From assembly GCA_964506075.1 (NCBI GenBank), contig CAZDKO010000001.1:25637-89636 (forward strand): DNA of 64,000 nt. The letters are read 5' to 3'. How positions within the stretch are numbered: the stretch's first letter is position 1; the number at the start of each line of letters is the position of its first letter. The position numbers and the translations under genes are program-made. The notes under the pieces were generated by a model. The model had not been told where the DNA came from. It did not search any database and saw only the letters and a list, made by a program, of their open reading frames with translations. This DNA comes from an uncultured bacterium (GTDB lineage: Bacteria; CAZDME01; JAYEMH01). Of the stretch, positions 172 through 57,747 are shown piece by piece.

Positions 172-180
172 AGACAGGAT

Positions 181-230
181 TAAGAAATAAGAAATAAGGA
201 TTAAGCGGTAAAGGAATAAGAGATTAATAA
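181..230. repeat. Heptanucleotide tandem array, TAAGNNN x about 7
   Basis: taagaaa|taagaaa|taaggat|taagcgg|taaagga|ataagag|attaata shows strict 7-nt periodicity. It is upstream of the 302 pseudopilin gene. Confidence 0.6.
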
Positions 231-241
231 AAATAAAACTT

Positions 242-277
242 AATTCTTAGAGTGAGCGTAGCGAACGTCTTAATCCT
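242..277. repeat. 36-bp element shared with 49175-49210 (inverse orientation, central 6-mers swapped); possible operator
   Basis: aattcttagAGTGAGcgtAGCGAAcgtcttaatcct. The reverse complement of 49175-49210 is aattcttagAGCGAAcaaAGTGAGcgtcttaatcct. Both lie 25-100 bp upstream of a + strand start codon. Confidence 0.5.
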
Positions 278-301
278 GATGACTGAAATAAAGGATTTAA
301 A

Positions 302-4405: not shown

Positions 4406-4513
4406 TTTTTAAATAGGGCTAGCTGTACCCCATTATTTAACCAATTATTGAGTTGGTATAGCTAGCCCTATTAAACTAATGGTAAAATATTAAAAATTTT
4501 GAAAGGAGAAAGA

Positions 4514-5869
4514 ATGGAAACAAATAAAATAATTTATTCCGGCGGTATAATCTTTTTGTGTCTTTTGTTATTTATCATTATTTTTTCACCGGCTTCTTCC
4601 GCCGACGTGATTTATTTAAAAAACGGACAGAAAATGGAAGGGACGATTGAAAAGCAGGATGCAGAGAAGATTTATTTAAAAATTAAACTGGGAATAATCG
4701 GCATCAGCCGGAACCAGATTGACCGGATAGAGAAAACCGTAGAAAAAATCGCCGGGGAAGGAAAAGAGATTGAAACTGAAAAAGAAATAGTAAAGGAAGA
4801 TGATTCGGCGACCAAGAAAAAATTTGAAGAAGAGCAGATGGCAGAAGGAAAAGTTAAATATAAAGACCGCTGGGTAACTCCGGAAGAAAAGGCCATCCTG
4901 GAACTGCCTAAAATAAAAATTTCCAACCGCCGGATTTATAAAGACGGTAAATTATTTTTTATCAAGGGCATAGATTACAGCGTTAATTATCCCAAAATGA
5001 CTAATTTTAGCGATATTCCAAGAACAGTCTGGGAAAAAGATTTTAAGATGATAAAGGAATTAGGCGTAAATACCATCCGCACTTATCATCCCCTCCCGCC
5101 GGAACTGCTGGATTTAGCCGAAGAAAATGAGTTGATGGTCATAGAAGCCGTGGTTTCCCCCAACAGTGAGACAAATTATAATTCCCCGGAAGAATTAAAA
5201 AAGCTTACTGATGAAGCCGTCCGGATAGTCAAGCGGGATAAATTACGCAAATGTATTCTTATGTGGGCTATCTGGAACGACGCTCCTTTCCACTGGGAGA
5301 AAGGCGGTAACTCGGTTGAGCGTTACGGAATGGAAAAGGTAAACGGGTTTTTAGGGAAAATTTATACGGCGGTTAAGAAAGAAGATAAGAATCACCCGGT
5401 CACGGCTTCAAATATGCTTGATTTACCGGGTTCAAATCTGGGATTTGATTTTCTGGATGCTATTGGTATCAACGCTTTTATCGGTATTGCCAAAGAGACC
5501 GGCTGGTTTGAAGGTATCTATACTCAGGAAAAAGCCCGTAACGACATAGAAAAACTGAAAGAGATTTCCGAAAAATATAATAAACCCGTCTATATCGCCG
5601 AGACCGGTTACAGCACCTTCTGCCGGAGCGAAAGACAGGATAAGATAATCAGAGAACAGATTGTTGCCTGCGGAGATGAGCTTCCCGGCGTGATAATTTT
5701 TGAGTGGGCCGATGAATGGTGGAAAGCCGGAAACCCCGCGGTTCAGGATAATAACATTGAAGAACACTGGGGGATAACCGATGCCTATCGCAAACCCAAA
5801 CCCGGCTATGAGGCCGTTTCGGAAATGTTTAAATCCATCAGGACCGAATCAAAGGGATATGTAAGATAA
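4514..5869 (+). CDS. Secreted TIM-barrel glycoside-hydrolase-like protein (ETG nucleophile motif as in GH17)
   Basis: RBS aaaggag lies 6 nt upstream of ATG 4514; the track ORF starting at 4499 includes the RBS. The protein has a signal peptide, a Lys/Glu-rich linker, then GVNTIRTYHP..ILMWAIWND..YIAETGYST..FEWADEWW, which resembles the acid/base and ETGW nucleophile segments of family-17-like beta-glycanases. The family call is weak. Confidence 0.4.
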   Translation: METNKIIYSGGIIFLCLLLFIIIFSPASSADVIYLKNGQKMEGTIEKQDAEKIYLKIKLGIIGISRNQIDRIEKTVEKIAGEGKEIETEKEIVKEDDSATKKKFEEEQMAEGKVKYKDRWVTPEEKAILELPKIKISNRRIYKDGKLFFIKGIDYSVNYPKMTNFSDIPRTVWEKDFKMIKELGVNTIRTYHPLPPELLDLAEENELMVIEAVVSPNSETNYNSPEELKKLTDEAVRIVKRDKLRKCILMWAIWNDAPFHWEKGGNSVERYGMEKVNGFLGKIYTAVKKEDKNHPVTASNMLDLPGSNLGFDFLDAIGINAFIGIAKETGWFEGIYTQEKARNDIEKLKEISEKYNKPVYIAETGYSTFCRSERQDKIIREQIVACGDELPGVIIFEWADEWWKAGNPAVQDNNIEEHWGITDAYRKPKPGYEAVSEMFKSIRTESKGYVR

Positions 5870-5870
5870 A

Positions 5871-6090
5871 AGTAGTTAGTAGACAGTAGATAGTAGTCAG
5901 TAGACAGTAATTTTTAATCAGCAGGCTCTTTAATGCCTAATTCCTAAATGACTAATGACGAATGAATGACCAAATAACTAATAAGGGTACAGAAACCAGA
6001 GCACGGAGTACAAACTCGTCTGTTATCTGTTCCCTGTACTTTTTAGTTTCTTGTTTTTCTCTGTTCTCAGTACTCTGGTATCTGTAATCT
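5871..6090. repeat. Composite intergenic repeat, copy A (AGTAGNN, AATGACN and ACAGANN heptad arrays); homologous in inverse orientation to 14581-14790
   Basis: agtagtt|agtagac|agtagat|agtagtc|agtagac then cagtaatttttaatcagcaggctctttaatgcctaattcctaaatgac then aatgact|aatgacg|aatgaat then ggtacagaaaccagag. The reverse complement of 14690-14790 matches at about 85% over more than 80 nt. Confidence 0.7.
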
Positions 6091-6244
6091 TTATTTTTAT
6101 TTGACTTTTAAATTAACATATGTTATATTTATAGCACTTATATCCTCCTATATTAATGTTGATAACACTCTTAATTTTATTATGTCTGGATTGATAATTC
6201 CTCCCCAAGTACATACCGTTTTAATGAAAGGTTAATTCATTTAT

Positions 6245-7882
6245 ATGAACAAACCCAAGATTACTATCGGTGTAGATATCGGTTCAAGTTGTATTAAAGT
6301 AGTTGAATTGAAAGAAACAAAATCCGGAATAACCCTTAAACGAGCCGGCCTCATAAATACACAGCTTGACCCGGCCAATCCCCCGACTTCAAAAGGTCAA
6401 TATCTGGCCGCCACCCTGGCGAAGTTATTGGCCGTCCTTAACATAAAGAATGTTTCAATTATTACTTCTGTTCCCGGCCAGTCAGTTCTAATTCGGTTAA
6501 TCAAACTTCCCCCTATTCCCGAAGATAAGATTGAGGAAGTCATAAAATATGAAGCCCAGCAACAGGTTCCTTTTTCCCTTGACGAGGTGGTTTGGGACTA
6601 TTATTTGCTTAAGAGAAAAAAAATATTAGAAATGGAAGTGCTGCTGGTAGCGATAAAAATAAATTTAATCGGAGAGATTCAGGATAAACTCGGGCCACAC
6701 CTTAACGCCAGTATCATTGATGTGGCTCCGCTGGCTCTCTATAATTGTGTGCGGTATAACAAGGATTACGAGAACGATAAAAAAGGCGTGGTCGTCATAG
6801 ATATCGGAGCTGAATCCACCGATATTATTTTTTTTAAAGAAGAAGATGTCTGGATAAGAAGTTTTCCTCTGGGGGGGAATAGTTTTACCCAGGTTCTCCA
6901 GAAGGAATTCGGCCTTTCTTACGCTGAAGCGGAACGCATTAAAAAAGGAGGGCTTAAGGACTATCCGGATGAAGAAGTTAAAAGGGTTACCAAGCCGATT
7001 ATTGAAGACTTGATAGTAGAGGTTCAGCACGCTATCGGCTATTATCGAAGCCAGGTTGAAGGATTAACTATTGGAGAGGTGATTTTAACCGGCGGTAACA
7101 GCCGGCTCCCGAATCTGGACCATTTTTTTAGCGAGAGTTTAGGTTTGGAAGTAAAGCATATTGACTGTTTTAAACGAATAAAAAGGGAACCAAATACGAA
7201 AATTTTTGTCGAAGATAAATGGGATGAAATTGAACCTTACCAGCATCTCTTCGGAGTAGCGGCCGGTCTGGCCCTGAGAGATAAAACCAAATGTGCGGTA
7301 GAAATTAACCTTCTCTCCCAGGAACTGGTAAAAAAGAAGACCAGTAAGCGTAAAAAAGAGTCTATAGCCGTTACGTTAATCATTTTTTTTATTATTCTGG
7401 GAAGTGGTTTTTTTATGCTGCGCCGTAGTTTCTCACACTGGCAGGCGAAACTTACTGAAACCCAGAGGCTTTATAATAAAGAATATAGTGTTTACCGGCC
7501 GGAAATAGAAACTTTAAAAAAAGAAAAAAGCCTTCTGGAAGGCCAGGTCGAAGTGATGTATCAACTTCTAGGCAAGAAAATGATGTGTTTAGAGTTATGT
7601 AGAGCTATAGGGAAGAATCTGACCGAAGAAATCTGGATAGACAGTTTGTCTTTTCCCAGAGATTCTGAGAGGGCGGAAGAAAAGGATAAGGAATTTCTTT
7701 TTTTAAAGGGTAAAGCGATGTCATTTGACGTAATTAATGAATTTATGCAGAAGTTAAAAGCGGATACCGCCTATATATCCAAAATAGAACCTTTGGCATC
7801 TAATTCCATAAAAATAGATGATAAAGAATTTATTGAGTTTTTTTTAGAAGGAAAACTTGCTTTGAAAGTAGACAGTAGATAG
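6245..7882 (+). CDS. pilM: Type IV pilus assembly PilM-PilN fusion protein
   Basis: The N-terminus KITIGVDIGSSCIKVVELKETKSGITLKRAG is the PilM actin-like ATPase start. At about residue 345 EINLLSQE matches the PilN INLLP motif. A single TM helix follows (IAVTLIIFFIILGSGFFML) and then a coiled-coil periplasmic region, as in PilN. The last codons overlap the AGTAGNN repeat. Confidence 0.65.
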   Translation: MNKPKITIGVDIGSSCIKVVELKETKSGITLKRAGLINTQLDPANPPTSKGQYLAATLAKLLAVLNIKNVSIITSVPGQSVLIRLIKLPPIPEDKIEEVIKYEAQQQVPFSLDEVVWDYYLLKRKKILEMEVLLVAIKINLIGEIQDKLGPHLNASIIDVAPLALYNCVRYNKDYENDKKGVVVIDIGAESTDIIFFKEEDVWIRSFPLGGNSFTQVLQKEFGLSYAEAERIKKGGLKDYPDEEVKRVTKPIIEDLIVEVQHAIGYYRSQVEGLTIGEVILTGGNSRLPNLDHFFSESLGLEVKHIDCFKRIKREPNTKIFVEDKWDEIEPYQHLFGVAAGLALRDKTKCAVEINLLSQELVKKKTSKRKKESIAVTLIIFFIILGSGFFMLRRSFSHWQAKLTETQRLYNKEYSVYRPEIETLKKEKSLLEGQVEVMYQLLGKKMMCLELCRAIGKNLTEEIWIDSLSFPRDSERAEEKDKEFLFLKGKAMSFDVINEFMQKLKADTAYISKIEPLASNSIKIDDKEFIEFFLEGKLALKVDSR

Positions 7883-7915
7883 TAAACAGTAGTTAGTAGT
7901 CAGTAGTAAATAGTC
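7867..7915. repeat. AGTAGNN heptad tandem array (about 7 units)
   Basis: agtagac|agtagat|agtaaac|agtagtt|agtagtc|agtagta|aatagtc. This is the same word family as 5871-5905 and 14745-14790. Confidence 0.65.
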
Positions 7916-7952
7916 GGTTACCGAGCGACTAGATACGAGATGCGGAGTGTGA

Positions 7953-8723
7953 ATGGCAAAAAATAAATTTGATAGTTCTCTTTTAATAGTCATCGCCATA
8001 ATGATAGTGGTTATGACGGTTTATTTTTTAGGCTTGGTGCGTCCTTATTTATCAAAACGTAAAAAGATAGTTAAAGAGATTAATCAAAAAATTGATGAAC
8101 TGGAATTATTCAGGAAGGAAAAAGGCGGAGTTACTTCTCAGGAATTAATTGATTCCCTTAGGGCAGACCAGGATGATTACCGCAAAAAAATAGAATTTTT
8201 AAAGAAATATCTTGGGGATTTCAAGGTTGCTTTCCCTTCGGGGGTTACCCAGAAAGGTTTATTTTTTAAAGAGCAGGCGTATCAAAGTGAACGCCGTTTA
8301 AGAGAAAATGCCGAGAATAAAGGGATGGTCTTGCCTGATTTTCTGGGTTTTGATAAAGGGGTTCCTAAGGAGGAAAACGCAGAATTGCTGCTCTGGGAAT
8401 TAATGGCCGTTGAGAAGATTGTCGGGACTTTAATTGAAAGCGGAATAGCGTCTTTATCTTCGCTGAACATAAGAACAGTAGAGGAACGCACGCAGTCAGA
8501 GGTGATTTATGATGTTATTCCTGTTGAAATTAAATGCCAGGGACGCACGCAGCCTTTACTTAAATTTGTTTATGATTTAAGCCGCGCTGATTATCCCCTC
8601 ATAATAGAGAAAGCGGATATTCAGAAGGCCATGTCGACCGGAAAAGATAATTTAGAGATAAATTTAACCATAGATGGTATCCGTTTAAAAAAATCTGATG
8701 GAGATAAAGAGAAAAACATATAG
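7953..8723 (+). CDS. pilO: PilO-like pilus assembly protein (N-terminal TM helix plus coiled coil)
   Basis: One N-terminal TM helix (LLIVIAIMIVVMTVYFLGLV), a coiled-coil segment and a C-terminal alpha/beta region. It sits between the pilM-N fusion and pilP-pilQ. The call rests on position and architecture, not a strong motif. Confidence 0.4.
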   Translation: MAKNKFDSSLLIVIAIMIVVMTVYFLGLVRPYLSKRKKIVKEINQKIDELELFRKEKGGVTSQELIDSLRADQDDYRKKIEFLKKYLGDFKVAFPSGVTQKGLFFKEQAYQSERRLRENAENKGMVLPDFLGFDKGVPKEENAELLLWELMAVEKIVGTLIESGIASLSSLNIRTVEERTQSEVIYDVIPVEIKCQGRTQPLLKFVYDLSRADYPLIIEKADIQKAMSTGKDNLEINLTIDGIRLKKSDGDKEKNI

Positions 8724-9168
8724 GGTGGCGGTATCTTTAATTCTGGCCGGGATTATGGGCGCTAAAATCGTTCAGGCCGAAGAGATCGGTTTTCAACCCA
8801 AAATTTTTGACTTACCCCGGCTGGAAAAGATTAAAAATGAATCCTTTGATAATTTTTGGCAGGATATTAACGAAAGGGATATTTTTTCTTCTCCAAAATT
8901 AGATAAGGTGTCTCAGGAAGTAGTTGCTCCGCCTCAAGAAAAGGTTAAGATACCGGAAACGAATTTAATCTATCGGGGAAGCCTCGTGGTGGGAGAAGAA
9001 CAATTGGCTATGATTGAAGTAGTCAAAGACGGTATGAATAAAAGTTACTTTTTGAGGAAAGGAGAATATATAGAAGGGTTTAGAATAGTTGACATCAATA
9101 GGGAATTTGTGTTAATCTATAGTCAGAAGAAAGGCGAACAAAAGCTTTTTCTTCTGGAGGATAATTAA
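8698..9168 (+). CDS. PilP-like small periplasmic pilus assembly protein (candidate)
   Basis: Signal peptide MEIKRKTYRVAVSLILAGIMGAKIVQA|EE. It is a 156-aa protein immediately upstream of the secretin and overlaps the pilO-like gene by 26 nt. Confidence 0.35.
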   Translation: MEIKRKTYRVAVSLILAGIMGAKIVQAEEIGFQPKIFDLPRLEKIKNESFDNFWQDINERDIFSSPKLDKVSQEVVAPPQEKVKIPETNLIYRGSLVVGEEQLAMIEVVKDGMNKSYFLRKGEYIEGFRIVDINREFVLIYSQKKGEQKLFLLEDN

Positions 9169-9187
9169 AAACGACGGAGGTTAGAGG

Positions 9188-11803
9188 ATGAAGAAAGCAA
9201 CGGTTCTTTTGGTAGTTGTGGGGCTAATGCTGCTGGGGGGGGCTTTAGGCTGGAGTGTATCCAGCAATGAGGTTATAAGTATAGGAGTTGAGAAACTCCC
9301 TGACAAAGACTTAGTAACCATCAGAACTGGGACGGAGGTTCATTATACTTATTTTAAATTAAAAAGCAGTAATCTGGAAGAGCCGGACCGGATCGTAATT
9401 GATGTATTAGAAACCGGCCGGACCCGGACGCCGAAGGTCATCCCGGTCGGGACAGAAGTAATTGAGCAGATTCGCACCGGTGTTTACGAAGACAAACAGA
9501 TACGGGTGGTAATTGACTTAAAAGGCGATTATTCTTATAAAGTAGGGAAAAAAGGTAATGATATTATGGTTTATGTGGATAATCCGGTCAGAGCCGCCGT
9601 TCCCGCCCGGGATATACAAAAGGGAACCTTAGCTGAAGACGTTTCCAGTCCTCTTTCGCAGGAAGAAATGGTTCGCCGGTATTATCTGAAAGGTAAAGAG
9701 CTTTATATTGAAGGAAAACAGTACGAAGCTAAAAAAGAATTTGAAAAGGTTTTGACCCTTGACCCTGCACATGTCTGGGCGAAGAGGTATCTGGCGGAGA
9801 TTAAAGAAGAAGAAGGCGCTTTAAAAACACAAGCTAAAGAATTATTGTCTGAACAGATAGGAGAGCTGCAAACATCCCAGGAAAGGGAGTTTATGCAGCA
9901 TTATGGCGCCGGTAAAGCTTATTACGACGAGAAAAGATATTTTGAAGCTATGGAAGAATTTAAAAAAGCTAATGAGCTATTGCCCGACCATAGATTCAGC
10001 GAAGAAGTTAATGCTTATATTTTAAAGTCACAGAAAAATTTACAAAAGACCCGAAGCGATGAAAAATCGGCACGGATTCAATATTTAATCGATGCCGGCC
10101 GAAGCGCCTATATGGCTAATGATTATTCCCGGGCTAAAGAATTATGGAGCAAGATTTTAGAGGTGGACCCGTATAATACACAGGCCTCGGCTTTGATTGC
10201 CAGGGCTGAAAAAGCAATGCTTGACAAAGAAGGGAAAAACGTTGAGGCTCAAAAAAGAATGGAGGAAAAAGCCCGGATTTTAGATGTAGAAAAGAATTTT
10301 TTACGAAAGCCTTATAAAGTTGGACCGGAAAAACCTGAATTAGATATATTGACGGCCAAGGTTGCCGGTGTCGGCAGAAAAGAAAAGGTTTCACGTTTTC
10401 TGGGAGAAAAAGCGACCCAGAAAGTTACTTTAGATTTTAAAGAAGCCAATATCAGGGATGTGATTCAGCAGCTTCATCAATGGACCGGGGTGAATATTAT
10501 TTTAGATGAAGCGGTTTTTAGCGATATAGAACCCACTTTAACCATTTATCTTACTGACGTAACCTTGATTGAAGCTTTGGAGTATATTATAAAAGCCAAA
10601 GGGCTTGATTACCAGTTAACGGAGGGGGTTATTTTTGTGACCACCCCGGAAAGACTCCAGGCCGAAGAAAAAATGGAGACCAGGATTTATCATTTACGCA
10701 AGGGTTTAGCTACCCACACTGTATTTAGTGAGCAGGCGATGGAGCCCAGAAAAGCGGTGGAAAAGGAGGTTTATGCGGAACAAGCCACCGTTCAAAAAGA
10801 AATCACTCTTAAGGACATTCTGGAAAAGAGTATTTCCTGGCCCGAAGGAAGCAAAATTACTCTCATTGAAAGGACCGGTTCTTTAATTGTCACCAACACT
10901 ACTTCTAATTTAATGATTATAGAGGATATTTTAAAAGAATTTGATGCTTCCCCCATCCAGATAATGATTGAGGCCCGTTTTGTTGAAGTCGGCGAAGGCG
11001 GTTTAAAAGAATTAGGGATGGAATGGAAACTGGATACAGACTGGGGTTTTGACCGTGTTTCCGGCAAGGGTAATAAAATTCAGGTTAACAAAGGACAAGT
11101 CAGCGAATTTCCTAAATTAGGCAGCCACAGATTTATTAAAGATATAGATGGTTCAACAATTGATAGTCTTGGTTCAATTGATTTGACCGTCGCCGGCATA
11201 CTTACCACTCCCCAGTTTGAAGCCGTTCTTCATGCGATTGAACAGGACGAAAAGACGAATCTTCTTTCTTCACCCAAGGTTACTACCATTAATGGGCAGG
11301 GAGCGGTTATAAAGGTCGTCCGGGAATATATCTATCCCACTGCTTATAAAACGACTGCTGCTGAATACAATTCAGCCGGCGTCAAGGTAAAAGATGCCAC
11401 CTCCACCCCGGAAAAATTCGTTACCCGTGATGCCGGGATACTGCTTAAGGTTGTACCCCGGGTAGGTATGGATAAAAAAATGATTAATCTAACGATTGTC
11501 CCGGAAGTCAGCGAATTAGGGGAATGGTATGATTACGGCACCGTAGAAACGCCGTATAAACAGCCGTTCTTTGATTCCAGGAAATGTATCACCAGTATTG
11601 TCGTTAACGATGGAGACACCGTAGTTCTGGGAGGATTAATCAAGGAGACGGTTGAGCATATTCGGGACAAAGTTCCTATTTTAGGAGACATTCCTCTTCT
11701 GGGTACGGCGTTCCGCCGCGATTACGACCGGGTAACCAAAAACAATTTAATCGTTTTTGTTACGGCGCGTATTATTGAACCGACCGGGGAAAATTACCGT
11801 TAA
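9188..11803 (+). CDS. pilQ: Type IV pilus secretin PilQ with an N-terminal AMIN domain and an inserted TPR region
   Basis: Signal peptide, then an AMIN-like beta domain (..IRVVIDLKGDYSYKV..). TPR-like repeats follow (YYLKGKELYIEGKQYEAKKEFEKVLTLDP; AGKAYYDEKRYFEAMEEFKKANELLPDH; GRSAYMANDYSRAKELWSKILEVDPYN). The C-terminal secretin signature is VPILGDIPLLGTAFRRDYDRVTKNNLIVFVTARIIE. Confidence 0.8.
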   Translation: MKKATVLLVVVGLMLLGGALGWSVSSNEVISIGVEKLPDKDLVTIRTGTEVHYTYFKLKSSNLEEPDRIVIDVLETGRTRTPKVIPVGTEVIEQIRTGVYEDKQIRVVIDLKGDYSYKVGKKGNDIMVYVDNPVRAAVPARDIQKGTLAEDVSSPLSQEEMVRRYYLKGKELYIEGKQYEAKKEFEKVLTLDPAHVWAKRYLAEIKEEEGALKTQAKELLSEQIGELQTSQEREFMQHYGAGKAYYDEKRYFEAMEEFKKANELLPDHRFSEEVNAYILKSQKNLQKTRSDEKSARIQYLIDAGRSAYMANDYSRAKELWSKILEVDPYNTQASALIARAEKAMLDKEGKNVEAQKRMEEKARILDVEKNFLRKPYKVGPEKPELDILTAKVAGVGRKEKVSRFLGEKATQKVTLDFKEANIRDVIQQLHQWTGVNIILDEAVFSDIEPTLTIYLTDVTLIEALEYIIKAKGLDYQLTEGVIFVTTPERLQAEEKMETRIYHLRKGLATHTVFSEQAMEPRKAVEKEVYAEQATVQKEITLKDILEKSISWPEGSKITLIERTGSLIVTNTTSNLMIIEDILKEFDASPIQIMIEARFVEVGEGGLKELGMEWKLDTDWGFDRVSGKGNKIQVNKGQVSEFPKLGSHRFIKDIDGSTIDSLGSIDLTVAGILTTPQFEAVLHAIEQDEKTNLLSSPKVTTINGQGAVIKVVREYIYPTAYKTTAAEYNSAGVKVKDATSTPEKFVTRDAGILLKVVPRVGMDKKMINLTIVPEVSELGEWYDYGTVETPYKQPFFDSRKCITSIVVNDGDTVVLGGLIKETVEHIRDKVPILGDIPLLGTAFRRDYDRVTKNNLIVFVTARIIEPTGENYR

Positions 11804-11820
11804 AAATATTTTCCCGGTTG
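11776..11820 (+). terminator. Candidate intrinsic terminator overlapping the pilQ stop
   Basis: ccggggaaaat..(13-nt loop)..attttcccgg forms an imperfect 10-bp stem and is followed by ttgattttgtt. Confidence 0.35.
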
Positions 11821-11990
11821 ATTTTGTTAAATGTTTAACTGCCGTTAGCCGACTTAGTTAGATAGTTAGATTTGAAACGTTCGTAATTTTTTGATTTATT
11901 TGATTTGTCATGCCGTAGATTTATCTCTGGCGAAAAGTTTCCAAAACCTACAGCTCTTCAAATTACTCGGTTTATTCATTAATAAGAACC

Positions 11991-12860
11991 ATGCCGAAAG
12001 AAATATATCTGATTGATGGTAATTCTTATGCCTATAGAGCTTTTTACGCTCTGGGAAAACTTACCACTTCTCAAGGAAAGCCAATTGGAGCAGTTTATGG
12101 TTTTTATAACATGCTTTTCAGCTTAATCAGCGAAAAGAGACCGGAATACCTGTCTATTGTCTTTGACCATCCGTCGCCGACTTTCAGGCATAAGAAATTT
12201 GAGGAATATAAAATTCACCGCCGGCCAATGCCTGAAGACTTAAAAGGACAAATTGCTTTAATTAAAGATATTGCTGTAACCATGGATATCTCGGTAATGG
12301 AACAAGCCGGCTTTGAGGCCGATGATATTTTAGCTACCCTGGCAAAAAAATTCGAAAAAGATTTTATGATATTTGTTGTCACCGGGGATAAAGATATTTT
12401 ACAGCTGATTAATTCAAAAATAAAAGTTATTGACACCCATAAGGATAATCTGGTTTATGATGAGGAAAAGGTGAAAGAGCGATACGGCTTTAAGCCGGTC
12501 CAAATTGTGGATTTCATTGCTCTTGCCGGAGATGCTACCGACAATATTCCGGGAGTCCGGGGGATAGGCAGTAAAACAGCCGTGGAGCTCCTTCAGGAAT
12601 TTGGAACCCTTGAAAATATTTACCGGAATCTGGATAAAGTTAAAGGGGAAGCAAAACAAAAAATTCTCCGCGAAAATTATGACCAGGCTAATATCAGCCG
12701 GGAATTAGCTCTTTTAAATTGCCGGGTGCCCATGGAAGTTAACCCGGAGGATTTACGCTGGGTAAAATTTGACAGAGAAAAAATAAAAGCAATTTTTAGA
12801 GACCTGGAATTTAACCGTTTGATTAAACGGCTGGACGAATTACCTTTAGTTTGTACTTAA
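11991..12860 (+). CDS. polA: DNA polymerase I, 5'->3' exonuclease domain fragment (frame 0)
   Basis: LIDGNSYAYRAFYAL (5'-nuclease motif, compare E. coli LVDGSSYLYRAYHAF) and ..REKIKAIFRDLEFNRLIKRL (end of the nuclease domain). The frame terminates at 12858-12860 inside the interdomain linker. Confidence 0.8.
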   Translation: MPKEIYLIDGNSYAYRAFYALGKLTTSQGKPIGAVYGFYNMLFSLISEKRPEYLSIVFDHPSPTFRHKKFEEYKIHRRPMPEDLKGQIALIKDIAVTMDISVMEQAGFEADDILATLAKKFEKDFMIFVVTGDKDILQLINSKIKVIDTHKDNLVYDEEKVKERYGFKPVQIVDFIALAGDATDNIPGVRGIGSKTAVELLQEFGTLENIYRNLDKVKGEAKQKILRENYDQANISRELALLNCRVPMEVNPEDLRWVKFDREKIKAIFRDLEFNRLIKRLDELPLVCT

Positions 12861-14518
12861 CTGATTATTATCAATATAAATCCGGGGTTGTCTTGGTGGG
12901 GAAAAAAGAATTAAATGATTTTATCAAGGCTGTTACAATCGGAAAGAAAGTAGCCTTGGAAATCAAAGCTGAAGATAAAGAAAAAAATTTTTTTGATGCC
13001 GGCCAGGCCGTTACCATCTATCTGGCTGGTGTCAACGGAAACTCTTATTCCGTATCTTTAGATAAGAATTCTCCTGAAGACAATTTAAAGAATATCCTGA
13101 TTGACGAAACGATAGATAAATACGGGTTTGATTTAAAAAATCAATCTCTGATTCTTTGTAATTTTAACCTGGATTTAAAAGCCGTAAAATTTGACCTTCA
13201 GATTGCCGCTCATCTCCTTGATTTTAATCTAGAAAAAGTTTCTTTAGAGAAAGTATTTAGTGAAGCAGAAATTTTAGAAAAAAAATTAAAAAAGGAGCTT
13301 TTGATTTCTCTGTTTCAGGATGTGGAAATGCCTTTAATAGAAGTTTTAGCTTCTATGGAGAAAAAAGGCGTAAAACTCAAAAAGGAGATTTTAGAGCGTC
13401 TTTCCGAAGAGATGGAAGGTCAGAAAAAAACGTTAAGAGAGGAAATCTATAAAATAGCCGGTGAAGAATTTAATATTGATTCACCGAAACAACTCGGCCT
13501 CGTTTTATTCGGTAAATTGGGCTTACCGCCGGTAAAAAAGAAAAAAACAGGATTTTCCACAGATGGGGAAGTTCTTGAAGTTCTGGCAAAAATCCATATT
13601 CTCCCCAAGAAAATTTTGGAGTACCGTGAAATTTCCAAACTTAAATCAACGTATATTGATGTTTTACCCGAACTTATTAGTTCCCGAGACGGGCGTCTTC
13701 ATACCTGTTATAATCAGACGGTTACCGCTACCGGCCGTCTTTCAAGCAGTAATCCCAACCTGCAAAATATTCCCATCAGGAGTGATTGGGGTAAACGTTT
13801 ACGGGAGGCTTTTGTTTCTCCTGATAAGTATTTTCTGCTGGGAGCCGATTATTCGCAGATTGAACTACGCCTTTTAGCCCATTTCTGTAAAGATGCTTTG
13901 CTATGTGAATCTTTTAAGAATGACGAAGATATCCATACGCAGACCGCACAGGAAATTTTTGAAGTCAAAGAAGGCAATATAAACGAAGATTTAAGAAGGA
14001 TGGCTAAAACTATAAATTTTGGAATAATTTACGGGATGAGTGCTTACGGTTTATCCCGCAGTCTACAGATTGAAGTTAATCAGGCCCAGGATTTTATTGA
14101 ACGTTATTTTAAGAAATACCAGGGGGTTAAGCAGTATATTAACCGGGTAATAGAAGAAGCTAAAAACAAAGGTTACGTTACCACGATGTTCGGACGGAAA
14201 CGCTATATTCCCGAGATTAAAAGCTTTATCCGTTCAAAAAAAGAATTCGCCTATCGCATAGCCATTAATACGCCCATTCAGGGCACAGCAGCGGAAATTA
14301 TAAAATTGGCGATGATCGGGATATACAGGGAACTTAAAAATAATAGATTAAAGACAGAAATGATTCTTCAGGTTCATGACGAATTAATTCTGGAAGTTCA
14401 TAAAGATGAGATATCGTTAGTTAAAGAAATAGTAAAAAAAGAAATGGAAAGTGTAGTTAATATTTCAGTGCCGCTTAAGGTAAAGTTATCCCTGGGGAGG
14501 TCCTGGGCGGAAATTTAA
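12851..14518 (+). CDS. polA: DNA polymerase I, vestigial 3'-5' exonuclease-like domain plus polymerase domain fragment (shifted frame; the track start is TTG)
   Basis: Motif A DYSQIELRLLAH, motif B RRMAKTINFGIIYGMSAYGLS, motif C LQVHDELILEV, plus EEFNIDSPKQLGLVLF. There is no DTE proofreading motif. The frame is open from the stop at 12824-12826. Confidence 0.8.
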   Translation: MYLTDYYQYKSGVVLVGKKELNDFIKAVTIGKKVALEIKAEDKEKNFFDAGQAVTIYLAGVNGNSYSVSLDKNSPEDNLKNILIDETIDKYGFDLKNQSLILCNFNLDLKAVKFDLQIAAHLLDFNLEKVSLEKVFSEAEILEKKLKKELLISLFQDVEMPLIEVLASMEKKGVKLKKEILERLSEEMEGQKKTLREEIYKIAGEEFNIDSPKQLGLVLFGKLGLPPVKKKKTGFSTDGEVLEVLAKIHILPKKILEYREISKLKSTYIDVLPELISSRDGRLHTCYNQTVTATGRLSSSNPNLQNIPIRSDWGKRLREAFVSPDKYFLLGADYSQIELRLLAHFCKDALLCESFKNDEDIHTQTAQEIFEVKEGNINEDLRRMAKTINFGIIYGMSAYGLSRSLQIEVNQAQDFIERYFKKYQGVKQYINRVIEEAKNKGYVTTMFGRKRYIPEIKSFIRSKKEFAYRIAINTPIQGTAAEIIKLAMIGIYRELKNNRLKTEMILQVHDELILEVHKDEISLVKEIVKKEMESVVNISVPLKVKLSLGRSWAEI

Positions 14519-14580
14519 GAAGGTAGGTTCTCCGGTTTACCAGTTAGCCGGTTGATTGGTTAAATGATTAACTGGTGAGC

Positions 14581-14790
14581 GGTGAATGGTAAGATAGTGA
14601 AAGATTAAAAGCCATAATCTAAAATGCCGAATGACTAAATCCGAATGCCGAATAAAAGATCTAATGCTCAAATGACTCAAAATGTTTTTTTCTGTTCTCT
14701 TATTAGGTCATTTAGGAATTAGGCATTAAAGGGTCTACTGATTAAAAATTACTGACTACTAACTACTGACTACTGTCTACTATTTACTGA
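14581..14790. repeat. Composite intergenic repeat, copy B (inverse orientation relative to 5871-6090)
   Basis: aatgccg|aatgact|aaatccg|aatgccg heptads; tcatttaggaattaggcattaaagggtctactgattaaaaattactg; then ctgacta|ctaacta|ctgacta|ctgtcta, which is the reverse complement of the AGTAGNN array. The reverse complement aligns to 5871-5960. Confidence 0.7.
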
Positions 14791-14801
14791 AATGAGAAAG
14801 A

Positions 14802-15431
14802 ATGTTAATCATCGGTTTAACCGGTAATATCGGTTCGGGAAAAAGCACCGTGGCCAAAATGTTTCATCGTTTAGGGGCAGCGGTAATTGACGTTGATAAG
14901 CTCGCTCATAAACTTCTTTCCCCGGGAAGTTTAGCATGGAAAGAGGTTGTCACTATTTTCGGAAGAAGAATTCTTAACGCCGACCAAAAAATTAACCGGC
15001 AGAGATTAGGAAGAATCGTCTTTGATAACCAGCAGAGGCTGAAAAAACTCAATAAGGTTATCCATCCGCATCTGGTTCATCAGGTAGAAAATGAGGTTAG
15101 CCGGCTAAAAAGAAATAAAAAGGAAATTATAATTATAGAAGCAGCTTTAGTTATAGAAATAGAGCCTTTATTTAAGATGATTGATTATCTGATTATGATT
15201 AAGATTGACAGAAAAAATCAGATTTCCCGACTTAAAAAAAATAAGAAGCATCTTACCAGAGATGAAATTGTAAAAAGAATTAAGTCTCAAATGCCTCAAC
15301 AGGAGAAAATTAAATTAGCCGATTTTGTTATCAATAATACGGGGAGTTTACAATCAACGCAAAAACAAGTCAAAAAAATTTGGGATGAGGATATTAAATT
15401 ATTAAGGAGGAAATCTTATGGATATTGTTGA
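14802..15431 (+). CDS. coaE: Dephospho-CoA kinase
   Basis: [21 protein letters not shown] contains a P-loop at the N-terminus. Length is 209 aa and the CoaE layout is typical. Confidence 0.85.
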
Positions 15432-16674
15432 TTTAAAAGGTAAAACAATCAATGAATTACATAAAATTGCCCAGGATTTAAATGTGACGGGATTAAGAGG
15501 AATGAAAAAAACCGACCTTATTTTTCGAATCCTCCAGGCAAAAACGGAAAAGAACGGTTTAACTTTTGGCGAGGGGGTGTTAGAAATTTTACCTGACGGT
15601 TTTGGTTTCCTCCGTTCTCCCAATTACAATTATTTACCCTGTCCCGATGATATCTATGTTTCTCCTTCCCAGATTAGACGTTTCAGTTTATTGACCGGGG
15701 ATACGGTTTCCGGGCAAATCAGGCCGCCCAAAGAAGGGGAACGGTATTTTGCTTTACTGAAAGTAGAAGCCGTAAATTTTGAAAATCCCGAAGGGATAAA
15801 AAACCGGATACTTTTTGACGATTTAACGCCTATCTATCCTCAGGAAAAGTTTATCCTGGAAACCAAGCCGGAAGAGATTTCTATGAGGATAATAGACCTT
15901 TTAGCGCCGATTGGTAAAGGTCAGCGGGGTCTAATTGTTTCCCCCCCCCGGGCCGGTAAGACTATCCTGCTTCAAAAAATTGCTAATTCTATTACCACCA
16001 ATACCCCGGAAGCGACCTTAATAGTTCTATTGATTGACGAGCGGCCAGAGGAAGTAACCGATATGCAGCATTCGGTAAAAGGAGAGGTAATCAGTTCTAC
16101 TTTTGACGAACCGGCTGAGCGTCACGTTCAGGTAGCGGAAATGGTTATTGAAAAAGCCAAGCGTTTAGTGGAACAAAAGAAAGATGTAATTATCCTTCTG
16201 GACAGCATTACCCGGTTAGGCCGGGCTTATAATGCCGTTGTCCCCCATAGCGGAAAGATTCTTTCCGGAGGTGTTGATTCCAATGCTTTACAGAAACCGA
16301 AGAGATTCTTCGGTGCGGCCAGAGCGATTGAAGGAGGAGGCAGTATCACCATTATCGCTACCGCTCTAATTGATACGGGAAGCCGTATGGATGAGGTAAT
16401 TTTTGAAGAGTTTAAAGGCACCGGCAATATGGAACTTCAGCTTGATAGAAAGTTAGTGGATAAAAGAGTTTTTCCGGCAATTGATATCAACCGTTCAGGA
16501 ACGCGCCGGGAAGAATTACTTTTAGATAAAAATGAACTCAATAAACTATGGGTGCTCCGCAAGGTTCTTAATTCCTTAAATCCTGTTGAGGCGATGGAAT
16601 TATTGGTTGAGAAGATTCAAAAAACTAAAACCAACAAAGAGTTTCTATCAATTATTAATAATCAGAAGGAGTAA
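15418..16674 (+). CDS. rho: Transcription termination factor Rho
   Basis: N-terminal domain ([19 protein letters not shown]), RNA-binding OB region, Walker [16 protein letters not shown]. Length is 418 aa. It overlaps coaE by 14 nt. Confidence 0.9.
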
Positions 16675-19414: not shown

Positions 19415-19452
19415 TAATTAAGATGTTGTTTAATAACGAAGGAGGGGATAAA

Positions 19453-19503
19453 ATGGCGAAGAAAAAGAAAGCGAAAAAAGCCGCAAAGAAAAAGAAAAAA
19501 TAA
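19453..19503 (+). CDS. 16-codon Lys-rich micro-ORF (MAKKKKAKKAAKKKKK)
   Basis: Strong RBS ggaggg 7 nt upstream of ATG. The coding sequence is made of A-rich Lys codons. A promoter-like sequence lies upstream and an intrinsic terminator 38 nt downstream. Not in the supplied ORF track (too short). Confidence 0.25.
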   Translation: MAKKKKAKKAAKKKKK

Positions 19504-19540
19504 ATTTTAAATTTTAGATTGTTAGTTCTAAATGGTTAAA

Positions 19541-19740: not shown

Positions 19741-19805
19741 CCCCAAGTTATTAATAAAAGATATTTAAGCTATATCAATTTGCATAACTTGTAAGTGAGG
19801 ATACA

Positions 19806-19889
19806 ATGCCAAAACCGAGAAGAAAAGGGAAATTGCGCTGGCGTTCTAAAAAAGCCAATAAGAGGCGCAGTCCAACCCGGGGCCGGTAG
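19806..19889 (+). CDS. 27-aa highly basic peptide (candidate small protein)
   Basis: RBS gtgagg 5 nt upstream. MPKPRRKGKLRWRSKKANKRRSPTRGR has 13 basic residues out of 27. Confidence 0.2.
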   Translation: MPKPRRKGKLRWRSKKANKRRSPTRGR

Positions 19890-40941: not shown

Positions 40942-41160
40942 AATTTACAATAAACAAATTCCAAATTACCCGTCTGCCCTGTCTGCCGAGAGGGAGGTGC
41001 CCCGCTTCGCCAAGCGAGGCGAGCAGGCAGGCGACAAACAGATAAACAATATACAAATTCCAAAACCGAAATTCCCAATAGCATATTGTCTATGGTATAT
41101 TGTAGTTTGTTTGTAATTTGTATATTGGTAATTGGAATTTACTGGACTATAAGGTAAATA
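40942..41160. repeat. Heptad-periodic AT-rich intergenic region with an embedded GC-rich hairpin island (40970-41036)
   Basis: caaattN heptads; a GC island ccgtctgccctgtctgccgagagggaggtgccccgcttcgccaagcgaggcgagcaggcaggcgac with local hairpin cgctt-cgcc-aagcg; then atattgt|ctatggt|atattgt|agtttgt|ttgtaat|ttgtata|ttggtaa|ttggaat. Confidence 0.55.
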
Positions 41161-43409: not shown

Positions 43410-43410
43410 T

Positions 43411-43481
43411 AAATCATAAATTCCAAATTACAATAGACAAATTACAAACAATACACAATATCCAATATCCAATATTAAATA
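43411..43481. repeat. Heptanucleotide tandem array (10 units)
   Basis: aaatcat|aaattcc|aaattac|aatagac|aaattac|aaacaat|acacaat|atccaat|atccaat|attaaat. Confidence 0.65.
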
Positions 43482-43841: not shown

Positions 43842-43989
43842 TTTTTAGCTTTTGTGTATTAAAGTTTTGTATATTGTTTGCCCTGTGAAATTTAAAGAAT
43901 TTCCAGGATTAAGTTCCCGCAATTTTTCAAATTACAGGGGATAATTTGTAATTTATGTATTGTAATTTTAACTATTTTGGTAATGTAAA

Positions 43990-57736: not shown

Positions 57737-57747
57737 CTGCCTGCAGC

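What the first reader, a model, noticed from the sequence alone, without database searches (positions are those of the whole stretch)
5871..14790. Inverted copies of a composite intergenic repeat of at least 120 bp flank the pilMNOPQ-polA segment
The reverse complement of 14690-14790 (..cagtaatttttaatcagtagaccctttaatgcctaattcctaaatga..) matches 5871-5960 (..cagtaatttttaatcagcaggctctttaatgcctaattcctaaatgac..) at about 85%. Both copies carry AGTAGNN heptad arrays and then AATGMCN heptads, with indels between them. A third AGTAGNN array sits at 7867-7915 between pilMN and pilO. The inverted copies bracket about 8.6 kb (6245-14518). This could be nothing more than reuse of a promoter-region cassette. 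Inverted repeats flanking a segment are also the arrangement seen in invertible or mobilisable DNA.
Basis: seen in the sequence. Interest (0 to 1): 0.65.

Follow-up and report, generated by a model that had tools for sequence, protein, structure and literature searches.

The report
Inverted heptad-repeat spacer modules, not a switch
The two inverted repeats are real, but they are two copies of a 7-base tandem-repeat spacer module of a kind that fills intergenic gaps in this Omnitrophota-like genome and many other bacteria, and nothing indicates that the pilus-polA segment between them flips or moves.

Summary
Window 5871-5995 (+) and 14689-14790 (-) align over 100 columns at 89% identity with one 25-nt indel. 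A third AGTAGNN array lies at 7867-7915. The invertible or mobile-segment reading is not supported. The 64 kb encodes no recombinase or transposase. The order GH-pilMOPQ-exo-polA-coaE-rho has the same orientation wherever relatives cover it. GC skew does not change sign across the segment. The copies also face their downstream genes in opposite ways, so they are not a promoter cassette. Seven-base periodic runs cover 5% of intergenic bases against 0.08% of coding bases. AGTAGNN arrays occur in many phyla. They usually sit just after a stop codon in the AGTAG sense, and their inverted partners lie only in the AGTAG...CTACT arrangement. Copy 1 starts 1 nt after a stop codon. Copy 2 ends 13 nt before the coaE start, read as CTACTGA, like the published TAACTGA repeats. 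Such spacers come and go between close relatives. I classify the pair as members of the known heptanucleotide tandem-repeat class, whose function is unproven. In passing, TIGR02436 four-helix-bundle genes, including one in this window, are specifically bracketed by inverted repeats, often heptad arrays.

The parts
5871..5995 (+). Copy 1 of the composite module. It consists of an AGTAGNN array (5871-5910), a shared non-array core CAGTAATTTTTAATCAG-N6-CTTTAATGCCTAATTCCTAAATGAC (5906-5952), a copy-1-specific 25-nt AATGACN insertion (5953-5977) and a shared tail CTAATAAGRGWACAGAAA (5978-5995). It begins 1 nt after the TAA stop of the glycosyl-hydrolase gene (4499-5869).
14689..14790 (-). Copy 2 of the composite module, in reverse complement. 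On the + strand (mRNA sense) it reads tail, core, then a (CTACTGA/CTACTAA/CTACTGT) array.
7867..7915 (+). Third AGTAGNN array, which lacks the core. The pilM(N) ORF runs into it and takes its stop codon (TAG, 7880-7882) from the array. pilO starts at 7953.
14619..14680 (+). AATGMCN heptads in + orientation within the polA-coaE spacer. They are complementary to the AATGCC/AATGAC part of copy 2's core, giving a possible local hairpin, but the fold is not better than shuffles.
5980..6095 (+). Imperfect long hairpin formed by ACAGANN heptads pairing with NNTCTGT heptads, followed by a U-rich run. It looks like a terminator for the glycosyl-hydrolase transcript (-31.1 kcal/mol, z = -3.5 against mononucleotide shuffles).
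6101..6129 (+). Sigma-70-like pilM promoter, TTGACT-17(TG)-TATATT. The corresponding position is conserved in L002, L003 and L007. It lies outside the repeat.
6245..14518 (+). The bracketed segment: pilM(N), a pilO-like gene, an ORF at 8698-9168, the secretin pilQ, a 5'-3' exonuclease and polA. All are on the + strand, and the order and orientation are conserved in relatives.
14802..16674 (+). coaE (14802-15431) and rho (15418-16674). In relatives they follow polA after only 0-29 nt, so the 283-nt spacer B lies inside what is inferred to be a polA-coaE-rho operon.

Best explanation
The two arms are copies of one modular intergenic cassette built from heptanucleotide tandem arrays (AGTAGNN, then AATGMCN) around a 45-nt non-array core. 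They belong to the class of bacterial heptanucleotide tandem repeats known as cyanobacterial STRR, 'long simple sequence repeats' and TAACTGA repeats. That class populates the spacers of this Omnitrophota-like genome and its relatives.

Shown here:
- Arrays of this type are confined to spacers.
- They are gained and lost as blocks between close relatives.
- They follow an orientation rule. The stop-codon-rich AGTAG sense abuts the 3' end of a gene, and the complementary CTACT(GA) sense precedes a start codon.
- Because every gene here is on the + strand, one copy behind the hydrolase stop and one copy ahead of the coaE start are necessarily inverted relative to each other. The 8.7-kb 'bracket' is a by-product of this.

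Inferred:
- Arrays grow by replication slippage.
- The whole module was copied from one spacer to the other by ectopic recombination, gene conversion or an unidentified insertion process. About 11% divergence and one 25-nt indel have accumulated since.
- Both spacers are transcribed. Copy 1 would form an unstructured 3'-UTR that carries stop codons in all three frames upstream of a terminator-like hairpin. Copy 2 would form a (CUACUGA)n leader directly upstream of the coaE ribosome-binding site inside the polA-coaE-rho transcript. This is the position and orientation in which TAACTGA repeats were proposed to modulate translation.
- Whether either copy has more than a permissive spacer role is not shown.
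For: Repeat reality.

Class membership:
- 7-nt periodic stretches cover 5.0% of intergenic bases against 0.08% of coding bases. Period 8 covers 1.2% and no other period from 4 to 12 is found in the spacers. Shuffled spacers give 0.15 nt against 236 nt observed.
- Many different units occur in the window's spacers and in those of relatives.

Orientation rule, from 151 AGTAGNN arrays in 120 loci of diverse phyla:
- 39 arrays start 0-40 nt after a same-sense stop codon of an ORF of at least 150 aa, 23 of them within 9 nt.
- A further 31 contain the stop codon themselves.
- Only 8 lie in the opposite sense.
- There are 28 adjacent AGTAG...CTACT pairs, mostly 28-190 nt apart. The reverse arrangement never occurs at short range.
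- The window's three arrays obey the rule.

Turnover:
- The polA-coaE spacer is 0, 14, 29, 83, 110, 283 or 476 nt in eight lineages.
- L002 and L129 are 88-89% identical in the flanking genes but have spacers of 476 and 29 nt.
- L003/L005 and L006 have 100% identical flanks with a 109-nt AGAAGAC-array block present or absent, bounded by a TGAAA direct repeat.

Against inversion:
- Gene order and orientation are conserved.
- No recombinase is present.
- GC skew is uniform.

Literature:
- TAACTGA heptamer repeats lie mostly within a few nt upstream of start codons and carry stops in all three frames in forward orientation (PMC4679880).
- L002 carries NNACTGA arrays, including exact TAACTGA units, ending about 6 nt before its coaE start.
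- A transcribed heptamer array that forms a 5'-UTR hairpin cut by RNase III has been shown experimentally in Haemophilus (PMC12721329).
Against: - Only 64 kb of the genome could be examined, so the copy number of the specific core is unknown. The core 22-mer has no exact match in either public collection.
- No function is demonstrated. Copy 1 alone has no significant RNA structure (z = -0.3) and spacer B only a modest one (z = -2.2).
- If the cassette were purely neutral, 89% identity over 100 nt, including a 25-nt and a 17-nt perfect block, would need a fairly recent copying event.
- The strict orientation and topology rule points to some constraint that is not identified here.
- The ORF-based orientation statistics use crude ORF calls, not curated genes.
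Confidence: 0.7

Rival explanations
1. Long-range RNA pairing. The AGUAG-sense copy, in the hydrolase 3'-UTR or a read-through transcript, base-pairs with the CUACU-sense copy in the coaE leader. This could happen in cis, looping out pilM-polA like the processing stems of rRNA operons and 23S intervening sequences, or in trans as an antisense interaction. The duplex would be an RNase III substrate that couples or separates expression of the flanking units.
For: - Both copies are on the transcribed strand of co-oriented genes, so their RNAs are complementary. The predicted duplex is -127.6 kcal/mol, against -13.1 and -10.5 kcal/mol for the copies folded alone.
- In other bacteria the same array type occurs as AGTAG...CTACT pairs 28-190 nt apart within a single spacer, and only in that arrangement.
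- Such pairs can bracket genes: TIGR02436 genes in L075, L077 and L116, and two genes in L062.
- A heptamer-array hairpin processed by RNase III is experimentally established in H. influenzae (PMC12721329).
Against: - A terminator-like hairpin (5980-6095) and a conserved promoter (6101-6129) lie between copy 1 and pilM, which argues for separate transcripts.
- Relatives with the same gene order lack the pair.
- The 11 mismatches between the copies show no sign of selection for pairing.
- No expression data exist.
Confidence: 0.1
2. The module is a small non-autonomous mobile element of the MITE or REP type that inserted independently into the two spacers. The inverted orientation would then simply reflect two insertion events.
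For: - Both spacers are much longer than in relatives. The GH-pilM spacer is 375 nt against 208-245 nt, and the polA-coaE spacer is 283 nt against 0-29 nt in four lineages.
- A 109-nt array block in L003 is bounded by a 5-nt direct repeat, TGAAA, and is precisely absent from L006.
- The AGTAG...CTACT-only arrangement in 28 pairs is what terminal inverted repeats with fixed polarity would give.
- By inspection, the roughly 58-nt centres of the pairs from Pyrinomonadaceae assemblies (L034, L041, L074, L080) resemble one another.
Against: - No target-site duplication or terminal inverted repeat delimits either window copy.
- No transposase or RAYT-like gene is present in the window.
- Only two copies are visible.
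- The TGAAA-bounded indel is equally well explained by deletion between microhomologies.
Confidence: 0.12
3. DNA-level regulatory cassette. The arrays and core are binding sites for a DNA-binding protein, such as a nucleoid-associated protein or a transcription factor, that co-regulates the pil operon and coaE-rho.
For: - Deleting heptamer repeats near the Nostoc recF and recO promoters altered reporter expression, and an unidentified binding partner was postulated (bioRxiv 10.1101/2022.06.06.494920).
- A DNA-binding site can work in either orientation, which would fit inverted copies.
Against: - The strand and orientation rule relative to coding direction is not expected for symmetric DNA binding.
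- Copy 1 lies upstream of a terminator-like hairpin, about 105-230 nt from the pilM -35 hexamer. Copy 2 sits inside an operon whose relatives have no spacer at all.
- No candidate binding protein was found.
Confidence: 0.05
4. Invertible or recombination-prone segment. The inverted copies mediate inversion of pilM-polA, either site-specifically or through RecA.
For: An inverted repeat of 82-100 nt flanks 8.7 kb. The longest perfect block is 25 nt, which I judge from general knowledge to be near the minimum length for homologous recombination.
Against: - No recombinase is encoded in the 64 kb.
- Orientation is identical wherever related contigs cover the segment.
- GC skew is uniformly positive and all genes in 1-20 kb are co-oriented.
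- Inversion would detach polA from coaE-rho and place seven housekeeping genes against their neighbours.
Confidence: 0.03

Closest known systems
TAACTGA heptamer direct repeats (MacGregor 2015, Front Microbiol, PMC4679880)
   Same: - Both are contiguous 7-nt intergenic arrays.
- The 'forward' orientation carries stop codons in all three frames, so arrays may overlap only the very end of an ORF.
- Most lie within a few nt upstream of a start codon.
- They are mixed with related heptamers, and contigs often break in them.
- Copy 2 reads (CTACTGA/CTACTAA)n and ends 13 nt before the coaE ATG. The orthologous spacer of L002 carries NNACTGA arrays that include exact TAACTGA units.
   Different: - The unit is CTACTGA/AGTAGNN rather than TAACTGA.
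- The host is an Omnitrophota-like bacterium, whereas that paper reported Beggiatoaceae, Cyanobacteria, a few Bacteroidetes and Thiocystis.
- Two of the three arrays here are in the opposite orientation directly behind stop codons, a minority class in that paper.
- The arrays here are part of a longer duplicated module with a non-array core.
Cyanobacterial STRR (short tandemly repeated repetitive sequences) and 'long simple sequence repeats' of 5-11 nt (Mazel 1990, from my own knowledge; Mrazek 2007, as summarised in PMC4679880)
   Same: - Heptanucleotide units predominate.
- Many unit types occur in one genome.
- The arrays are intergenic.
- Function is unknown, and slippage has been proposed as their origin.
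- AGTAGNN arrays were found here in many cyanobacterial assemblies, including Nostoc, Okeania, Waterburya and Moorena.
   Different: I know of no description in Omnitrophota. In the library searched I also found no description of the orientation and topology rule measured here, or of the link to TIGR02436 genes.
Haemophilus influenzae hmw1A (ATCTTTC)n 5'-UTR repeat (PMC12721329)
   Same: A heptamer array is transcribed within an untranslated region and forms one arm of a long hairpin with a complementary arm. This is an experimentally shown way for such arrays to act, through RNase III processing and tuning of expression.
   Different: That system is a phase-variable contingency locus with changes in unit number. 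Here L003 and L005, from different samples, have identical arrays, and the window's two arms are 8.7 kb apart rather than in one UTR.
REP/BIME elements of proteobacteria (from my own knowledge)
   Same: They are abundant intergenic elements, often in inverted pairs just downstream of stop codons, that form hairpins in mRNA. The AGTAG unit also contains GTAG, the conserved REP head tetranucleotide.
   Different: A REP unit is itself a 20-40-nt palindrome and is associated with RAYT transposases. Here the units are non-palindromic 7-mers of many different sequences, most lacking GTAG, and no RAYT is seen in the window.
23S rRNA intervening sequences that encode TIGR02436/PF05635 proteins (from my own knowledge)
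   Same: A small four-helix-bundle gene is flanked by inverted repeats that can form a processing stem. The same design is found in the window at 43410-43989 and in 59% of 68 related genes.
   Different: The finding's arms bracket seven housekeeping genes, not a four-helix-bundle gene. None of these cassettes lies in an rRNA gene.

Membership tests
Site-specific invertible segment (Hin/Gin/Fim type) | Inverted repeats at both ends of the segment | tested here: met
   82 nt at 89% ungapped, or 100 aligned columns at 89% with gaps
Site-specific invertible segment (Hin/Gin/Fim type) | A serine or tyrosine recombinase encoded in or next to the segment | tested here: not met
   Pfam and NCBIfam scans of the window's 46 ORFs of at least 100 aa assigned as genes plus the tRNA-flanking region found no recombinase, integrase or transposase
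Site-specific invertible segment (Hin/Gin/Fim type) | Both orientations are observed, or inversion switches a promoter or gene end | tested here: not met
   Only one orientation is seen in the related contigs that cover the segment. GC skew is uniform. The segment holds complete co-oriented housekeeping operons with their own conserved promoter. Read-level data for this species could not be examined.
Composite transposon or mobilisable island | Flanking IS or terminal repeats with a transposase, target-site duplication, and patchy presence of the cargo | tested here: not met
   There is no transposase and no duplication at the repeat ends. The cargo genes are syntenic in all relatives examined.
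Heptanucleotide tandem repeat arrays (STRR / LSSR / TAACTGA type) | Head-to-tail units of 7 nt, at least 3 copies, longer than chance | tested here: met
   TRF finds period 7 with 4.6-7 copies. The AGTAGNN pattern gives 13 matches against 0.03 expected.
Heptanucleotide tandem repeat arrays (STRR / LSSR / TAACTGA type) | Confined to intergenic DNA, with several unit types per genome | tested here: met
   5.0% of intergenic against 0.08% of coding bases. Units seen include AGTAGNN, AATGMCN, ACAGARN, AAGRATT, ACAAATT and ATACGGN.
Heptanucleotide tandem repeat arrays (STRR / LSSR / TAACTGA type) | Forward (stop-rich) arrays directly upstream of start codons or overlapping only the ends of ORFs | tested here: met
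   Copy 2 ends 13 nt before the coaE ATG and has stops in all 3 frames on the + strand. The array at 7867 supplies the pilM(N) stop codon.
Heptanucleotide tandem repeat arrays (STRR / LSSR / TAACTGA type) | Rapid gain, loss or length change between close strains | tested here: met
   L003/L005 against L006; L002 against L129. These are relatives, not strains of the window's own species.
REP/BIME | The unit is an imperfect palindrome with a GTAG head, and a RAYT gene is present in the genome | tested here: not met
   The units are non-palindromic 7-mers and each copy alone folds weakly (-13.1 and -10.5 kcal/mol). No RAYT is in the window, and the rest of the genome could not be tested.
MITE | Terminal inverted repeats, target-site duplication, and many near-identical copies | tested here: inconclusive
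   Neither copy has terminal inverted repeats or a target-site duplication. Only two copies are visible in 64 kb. The core has no match in either public collection, so copy number is unknown.
IVS-like TIGR02436 cassette | A four-helix-bundle gene between the inverted arms | tested here: not met
   No such gene lies between 5995 and 14689. The feature is met elsewhere in the window, at 43482-43841.

The most novel reading that the evidence does not exclude
AGTAG-type and other heptad arrays may be the arms of a widespread, cross-phylum hairpin-cassette system. In it, inverted arrays form long RNA stems, possibly RNase III substrates, around spacer centres, TIGR02436 four-helix-bundle genes or whole gene blocks. 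Under this reading the window's pair is a split or long-range version: the hydrolase 3'-UTR pairs with the coaE-rho leader and so brackets or couples the pil-polA unit. The TIGR02436 proteins, which are relatives of the nucleic-acid-binding Avd protein, could be the factors that recognise or propagate the arrays.
Probability: 0.1. Interest if true: 0.7.

Novelty: new member of a known kind. Interest (0 to 1): 0.35.

Why it matters
For this finding, the result removes a false lead. The pilus-polA block is not a flip-switch or an island, and inverted repeats around it should not be annotated as such.

More broadly, the function of bacterial heptanucleotide arrays has been open since the STRR were described in 1990. 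This window and the loci fetched here add three things that can be tested:
- Arrays show a strict strand and topology rule relative to stop and start codons across phyla.
- Whole-block gain and loss occurs inside an essential operon (polA-coaE-rho).
- There is a specific association with TIGR02436 genes.

If the arrays act as RNA processing or insulating stems, they would be a general and overlooked layer of operon architecture in uncultivated phyla. They also explain contig breaks in metagenome assemblies of these organisms.

Tried and rejected
- Known RNA families: an Rfam scan of the whole window at gathering thresholds found only tRNA-Val.
- Promoter cassette: the shared sequence has no consensus match and the copies face their downstream genes in opposite ways.
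- Finding more copies of the core: the 22-mer has no hit in genome contigs or metagenome contigs. Exact-protein look-ups for CoaE, Rho, PilM and P0121 all failed. P0121 is the 100% identical NCBI Rho, recorded on a 132,672-nt contig. As a result, neither the rest of the genome nor an independent assembly across the junctions could be examined.
- L001, a Logan contig with 100% identical PolA, ends inside spacer B about 120 nt before copy 2, so it says nothing about orientation.
- Significant local RNA structure for the copies: copy 1's spacer has z = -0.3, spacer B z = -2.2, and the AATGMC hairpin z = -0.4.
- Ideas considered and dropped for lack of support: Hfq (ARN) or CsrA (GGA) binding motifs, because the AGTAGNN units do not fit either; a Rho-utilisation site upstream of coaE-rho, because the window's CUACU array has more C than G but L002's equivalent array does not; and conservation of the arrays by descent at orthologous spacers, which is contradicted by their presence or absence between close relatives.

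Full report
OBSERVATION

The inverted repeat is real. The repeat finder reports arms 5871-5952 and 14707-14788, 82 nt, 89% complementary, 8754 nt apart. A gapped alignment extends the homology to 5871-5995 against the reverse complement of 14689-14788. That gives 100 aligned columns at 89% identity, with one 25-nt insertion in copy 1 at 5953-5977 that is itself made of AATGACN units.

The match is far beyond chance. A 25-mer, CTTTAATGCCTAATTCCTAAATGAC, and a 17-mer, CAGTAATTTTTAATCAG, are identical in both copies. The 25-mer has no match in 100 shuffles. In a self-BLAST this pair is the strongest repeat in the 64 kb (E = 3.7e-23).

AGTAGNN arrays occur at three sites only: 5871-5910 (+), 7867-7915 (+) and 14749-14788 (-). 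That is 13 pattern matches against 0.03 expected.

GENES AND ORGANISM

All genes from 1 to 20 kb lie on the + strand. Their order is as follows:
- a GH2-like hydrolase, 4499-5869
- spacer A, 375 nt
- pilM(N), 6245-7882
- a pilO-like gene, 7953-8723
- an ORF, 8698-9168
- the secretin pilQ, 9188-11803
- a separate 5'-3' exonuclease, 11991-12860
- polA, 12851-14518
- spacer B, 283 nt
- coaE, 14802-15431
- rho, 15418-16674
- mgtE
- apbE

Every named Rho homologue at 77-79% identity is 'Candidatus Omnitrophota', so the source is an uncultivated Omnitrophota-like bacterium.

WHY IT IS NOT AN INVERTIBLE OR MOBILE SEGMENT

- Scans of essentially all ORFs in the window found only housekeeping functions and no recombinase, integrase or transposase.
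- Contigs from relatives keep the same order and orientation. Their PolA proteins are 63-69% identical to the window's. pilMOPQ-exo-polA-coaE-rho is collinear in L002, L003 and L007, with the hydrolase directly upstream in L003, L004 and L007 and mgtE following rho in L002 and L007. The partial contigs L005, L006, L129, L130 and L131 agree.
- GC skew is positive throughout 1-26 kb, with no local reversal.
- The pilM promoter, TTGACT-17-TATATT at 6101-6129, is conserved in L002, L003 and L007 and lies outside the repeat.
- Relative to their downstream genes the two copies have opposite polarity. This rules out a reused promoter cassette.

WHAT THE SEQUENCE IS

The window's spacers are full of short imperfect tandem arrays. 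Most have period 7 and a few have period 8, and they use many different units: AGTAGNN, AATGMCN, ACAGARN/TCTGTNN, AAGRATT, ACAAATT, ATACGGN and AACCRGTT-like 8-mers.

Stretches with at least 17 of 21 matches at lag 7 cover 5.0% of intergenic bases but only 0.08% of coding bases. Lag 8 covers 1.2%. No other lag from 4 to 12 is found in the spacers, although lag 12 flags 34 coding bases. Shuffled spacers give 0.15 nt against 236 nt observed. The spacers of relatives show the same habit with other units, such as AGAAGAC, CACAGAG, CCATAGA and NNACTGA.

This matches a known but functionally unexplained class:
- cyanobacterial STRR (from my own knowledge)
- 'long simple sequence repeats', among which heptamers predominate (Mrazek 2007, as summarised in PMC4679880)
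- the TAACTGA repeats of Beggiatoaceae, Cyanobacteria and Bacteroidetes. These lie mostly just upstream of start codons and carry stop codons in all three frames (PMC4679880).

On the mRNA strand, copy 2 reads (CTACTGA/CTACTAA/CTACTGT)n and ends 13 nt before the coaE ATG. L002 has NNACTGA arrays, including exact TAACTGA units, that end about 6 nt before its coaE ATG.

A GENERAL PLACEMENT RULE EXPLAINS THE INVERTED ARRANGEMENT

The hits span Cyanobacteria, Bacteroidota, Acidobacteriota, Planctomycetota, Chloroflexota, Elusimicrobiota, Patescibacteria, Bacillota, Proteobacteria and others.

Among the arrays in these loci:
- There are 28 adjacent pairs in the arrangement AGTAG...CTACT. Most are 28-190 nt apart.
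- There is no short-range pair in the reverse arrangement. The five reversed neighbours are 883-5184 nt apart and are separate elements.
- Using ORFs of at least 150 aa, 39 arrays begin 0-40 nt after a same-sense stop codon, 23 of them within 9 nt.
- A further 31 arrays contain the stop codon themselves.
- Only 8 arrays lie in the opposite sense.

In the window, copy 1 starts 1 nt after the hydrolase TAA. The array at 7867 supplies the pilM(N) stop codon. Copy 2, in the complementary sense, precedes a start codon.

On a co-oriented stretch of genes, a post-stop copy and a pre-start copy of the same module must be inverted relative to each other. A second, unrelated inverted heptad pair behaves the same way: the ACAAATT-type arrays at 41083-41141 and 43417-43475 (81% identity) bracket cysS and an aldolase gene. 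In L062, inverted AGTAG arrays likewise bracket two ordinary genes.

TURNOVER

The polA-coaE spacer varies widely among eight lineages:
- 0 nt in L006 and L131
- 14 nt in L130
- 29 nt in L129
- 83 nt in L007
- 110 nt in L003 and L005
- 283 nt in the window
- 476 nt in L002

L002 and L129 are 88-89% identical in the flanking genes yet differ by the whole 470-nt heptad-laden spacer. L003/L005 and L006 have 100% identical flanks and differ by a 109-nt AGAAGAC-array block bounded by a TGAAA direct repeat.

The arrays at these positions are therefore lineage-specific gains or losses, not ancient conserved elements. Spacer B sits inside what in relatives is a tight polA-coaE-rho operon. The GH-pilM spacer is also 130-170 nt longer than in L003 and L007. 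L007 carries its own AGTARGN-type array behind the hydrolase stop.

MECHANISM: WHAT IS SHOWN AND WHAT IS INFERRED

Shown: membership of the repeat class, the placement rule, block-wise turnover, and the absence of inversion hallmarks.

Inferred:
- The arrays expand by slippage.
- The composite module was copied between the two spacers by ectopic recombination, gene conversion or an unknown insertion process.
- At the RNA level, copy 1 is an unstructured 3'-UTR tract with stops in all three frames. It lies ahead of a terminator-like hairpin at 5980-6095 (-31.1 kcal/mol, z = -3.5).
- Copy 2 is a leader directly upstream of the coaE ribosome-binding site.

A transcribed heptamer array acting through a long hairpin and RNase III has experimental precedent in H. 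influenzae hmw1A (PMC12721329). Deleting heptamer repeats altered reporter expression in Nostoc.

Because the two copies give complementary RNAs, they could in principle pair with each other (-127.6 kcal/mol). I keep this as a low-probability rival. A terminator-like hairpin and a promoter separate copy 1 from the pil operon, and relatives lack the pair.

LIMITS

- Only 64 kb of the genome is available.
- The core has no exact match in either public collection.
- Exact-protein look-ups for the window's proteins failed. Genome-wide copy number and read-level structural variation therefore could not be tested.
- The orientation statistics rest on simple ORF calls.

SIDE FINDING

Window ORF 43482-43841 is a TIGR02436 four-helix-bundle protein (E = 1e-23). 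This family is the 23S rRNA intervening-sequence protein family and is related to the Avd protein. The ORF sits between inverted ACAAATT/AATTTGT arrays.

Among the AGTAG loci, the 390-515-nt centres of three inverted pairs also encode TIGR02436 proteins: L075 (Prevotella), L077 (Stahlbacteria) and L116 (Nomurabacteria). L038 (Elusimicrobiota) has the same design.

Among 80 metagenomic relatives of the window protein, 68 identified four-helix-bundle genes had both flanks available. Of these, 40 (59%) have an inverted repeat between their 180-nt flanks with score at least 14. Only 3 of 108 other genes in the same loci do. In a separate count of 77 loci with both flanks, 36 have a strictly 7-periodic stretch in at least one flank. 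Four full-text searches of the held library returned no paper making this link.

VERDICT

The inversion or mobility interpretation is not supported. The pair is a new member of the known heptanucleotide-array class in a new lineage, and it is of moderate interest mainly for the general rules it exposes.

Noticed in passing
window 43410-43989 (ORF 43482-43841); loci L075, L077, L116, L038, L132-L211: A TIGR02436 four-helix-bundle gene (the 23S rRNA IVS-protein family, related to Avd) sits between inverted heptad arrays (ACAAATT / AATTTGT). The design recurs across phyla. Of 68 related genes, 40 have inverted-repeat flanks, against 3 of 108 neighbouring genes. Three AGTAGNN inverted pairs from different phyla enclose exactly such a gene.
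   Followed up: partly
window 41083-41141 and 43417-43475: A second inverted heptad-array pair (81% over 59 nt, ACAAATT type) brackets cysS and an aldolase gene. The T-rich sense lies before the cysS start and the A-rich sense after the aldolase stop. This is the same placement logic as in the finding.
   Followed up: partly
L003 11596-11707 and L005, against L006 2655-2657: Contigs with 100% identical flanks differ by a 109-nt AGAAGAC-array block between polA and coaE. The block is bounded by a 5-nt direct repeat, TGAAA. Without it, the polA stop and the coaE start nearly overlap.
   Followed up: yes
L002 8532-9006 against L129 4402-4430: Two relatives that are 88-89% identical in the flanking genes have polA-coaE spacers of 476 nt and 29 nt. 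The long spacer holds several heptad array types and a GC-rich hairpin flanked by directly repeated ACTGANN arrays.
   Followed up: partly
window 40965-41040 and 57735-57790; L002 8855-8925: GC-rich palindromic elements of the form CCTGCCTG...CAGGCAGG are embedded in AT-rich heptad spacers. They recur in two window spacers and in a relative, and may be a separate small dispersed hairpin family or terminators.
   Followed up: no
window 175-285 and 49165-49275; L002 8590-8690: Another composite spacer module: AAGRATT heptad arrays flank a centre of about 20 nt (GACGCTCAC..GTTCGC). It is present in two window spacers in opposite orientation, with the two 6-mers of the centre swapped, and also in L002.
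   Followed up: no
window 11991-12860 and 12851-14518: DNA polymerase I is split into a separate 5'-3' exonuclease gene and a 555-aa polymerase gene that lacks a PF01612 3'-5' exonuclease hit. The same split occurs in all close relatives (PolA of 525-542 aa), whereas more distant Omnitrophota have a fused protein of about 890 aa.
   Followed up: partly
window 19452-19511 and 19805-19888; L007 16268-16318 and about 16397-16480: Two tiny, very basic ORFs are conserved between the window and L007, and the first is preceded by a GGAGG Shine-Dalgarno-like motif in both. They read MAKKKKAKKAAKKKKK and MPKPRRKGKLRWRSKKANKRRSPTRGR. They may be small ribosomal or RNA-binding peptides.
   Followed up: no
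L001 (Logan SRR10178537), end of contig, equal to window about 14566: An independent assembly with 100% identical PolA breaks inside spacer B, in the GGTTRAYNG-type 8-mer arrays. This fits the idea that heptad and octad spacers cause assembly breaks.
   Followed up: no
window 51578-51638 and 53016-53076: A 61-nt direct repeat at 93% identity lies at the 3' ends of two adjacent PEP-CTERM protein genes (50450-51658 and 51816-53090). The genes appear to be paralogues with conserved C-terminal sorting signals.
   Followed up: no
L034, L041, L074, L080 (Pyrinomonadaceae MAGs): The roughly 58-nt centres between inverted (AGTAGAC)n arms resemble one another across loci and MAGs (GCTCYGC...GAAGGYTTTT). 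This suggests a true dispersed hairpin element with a directional core.
   Followed up: no
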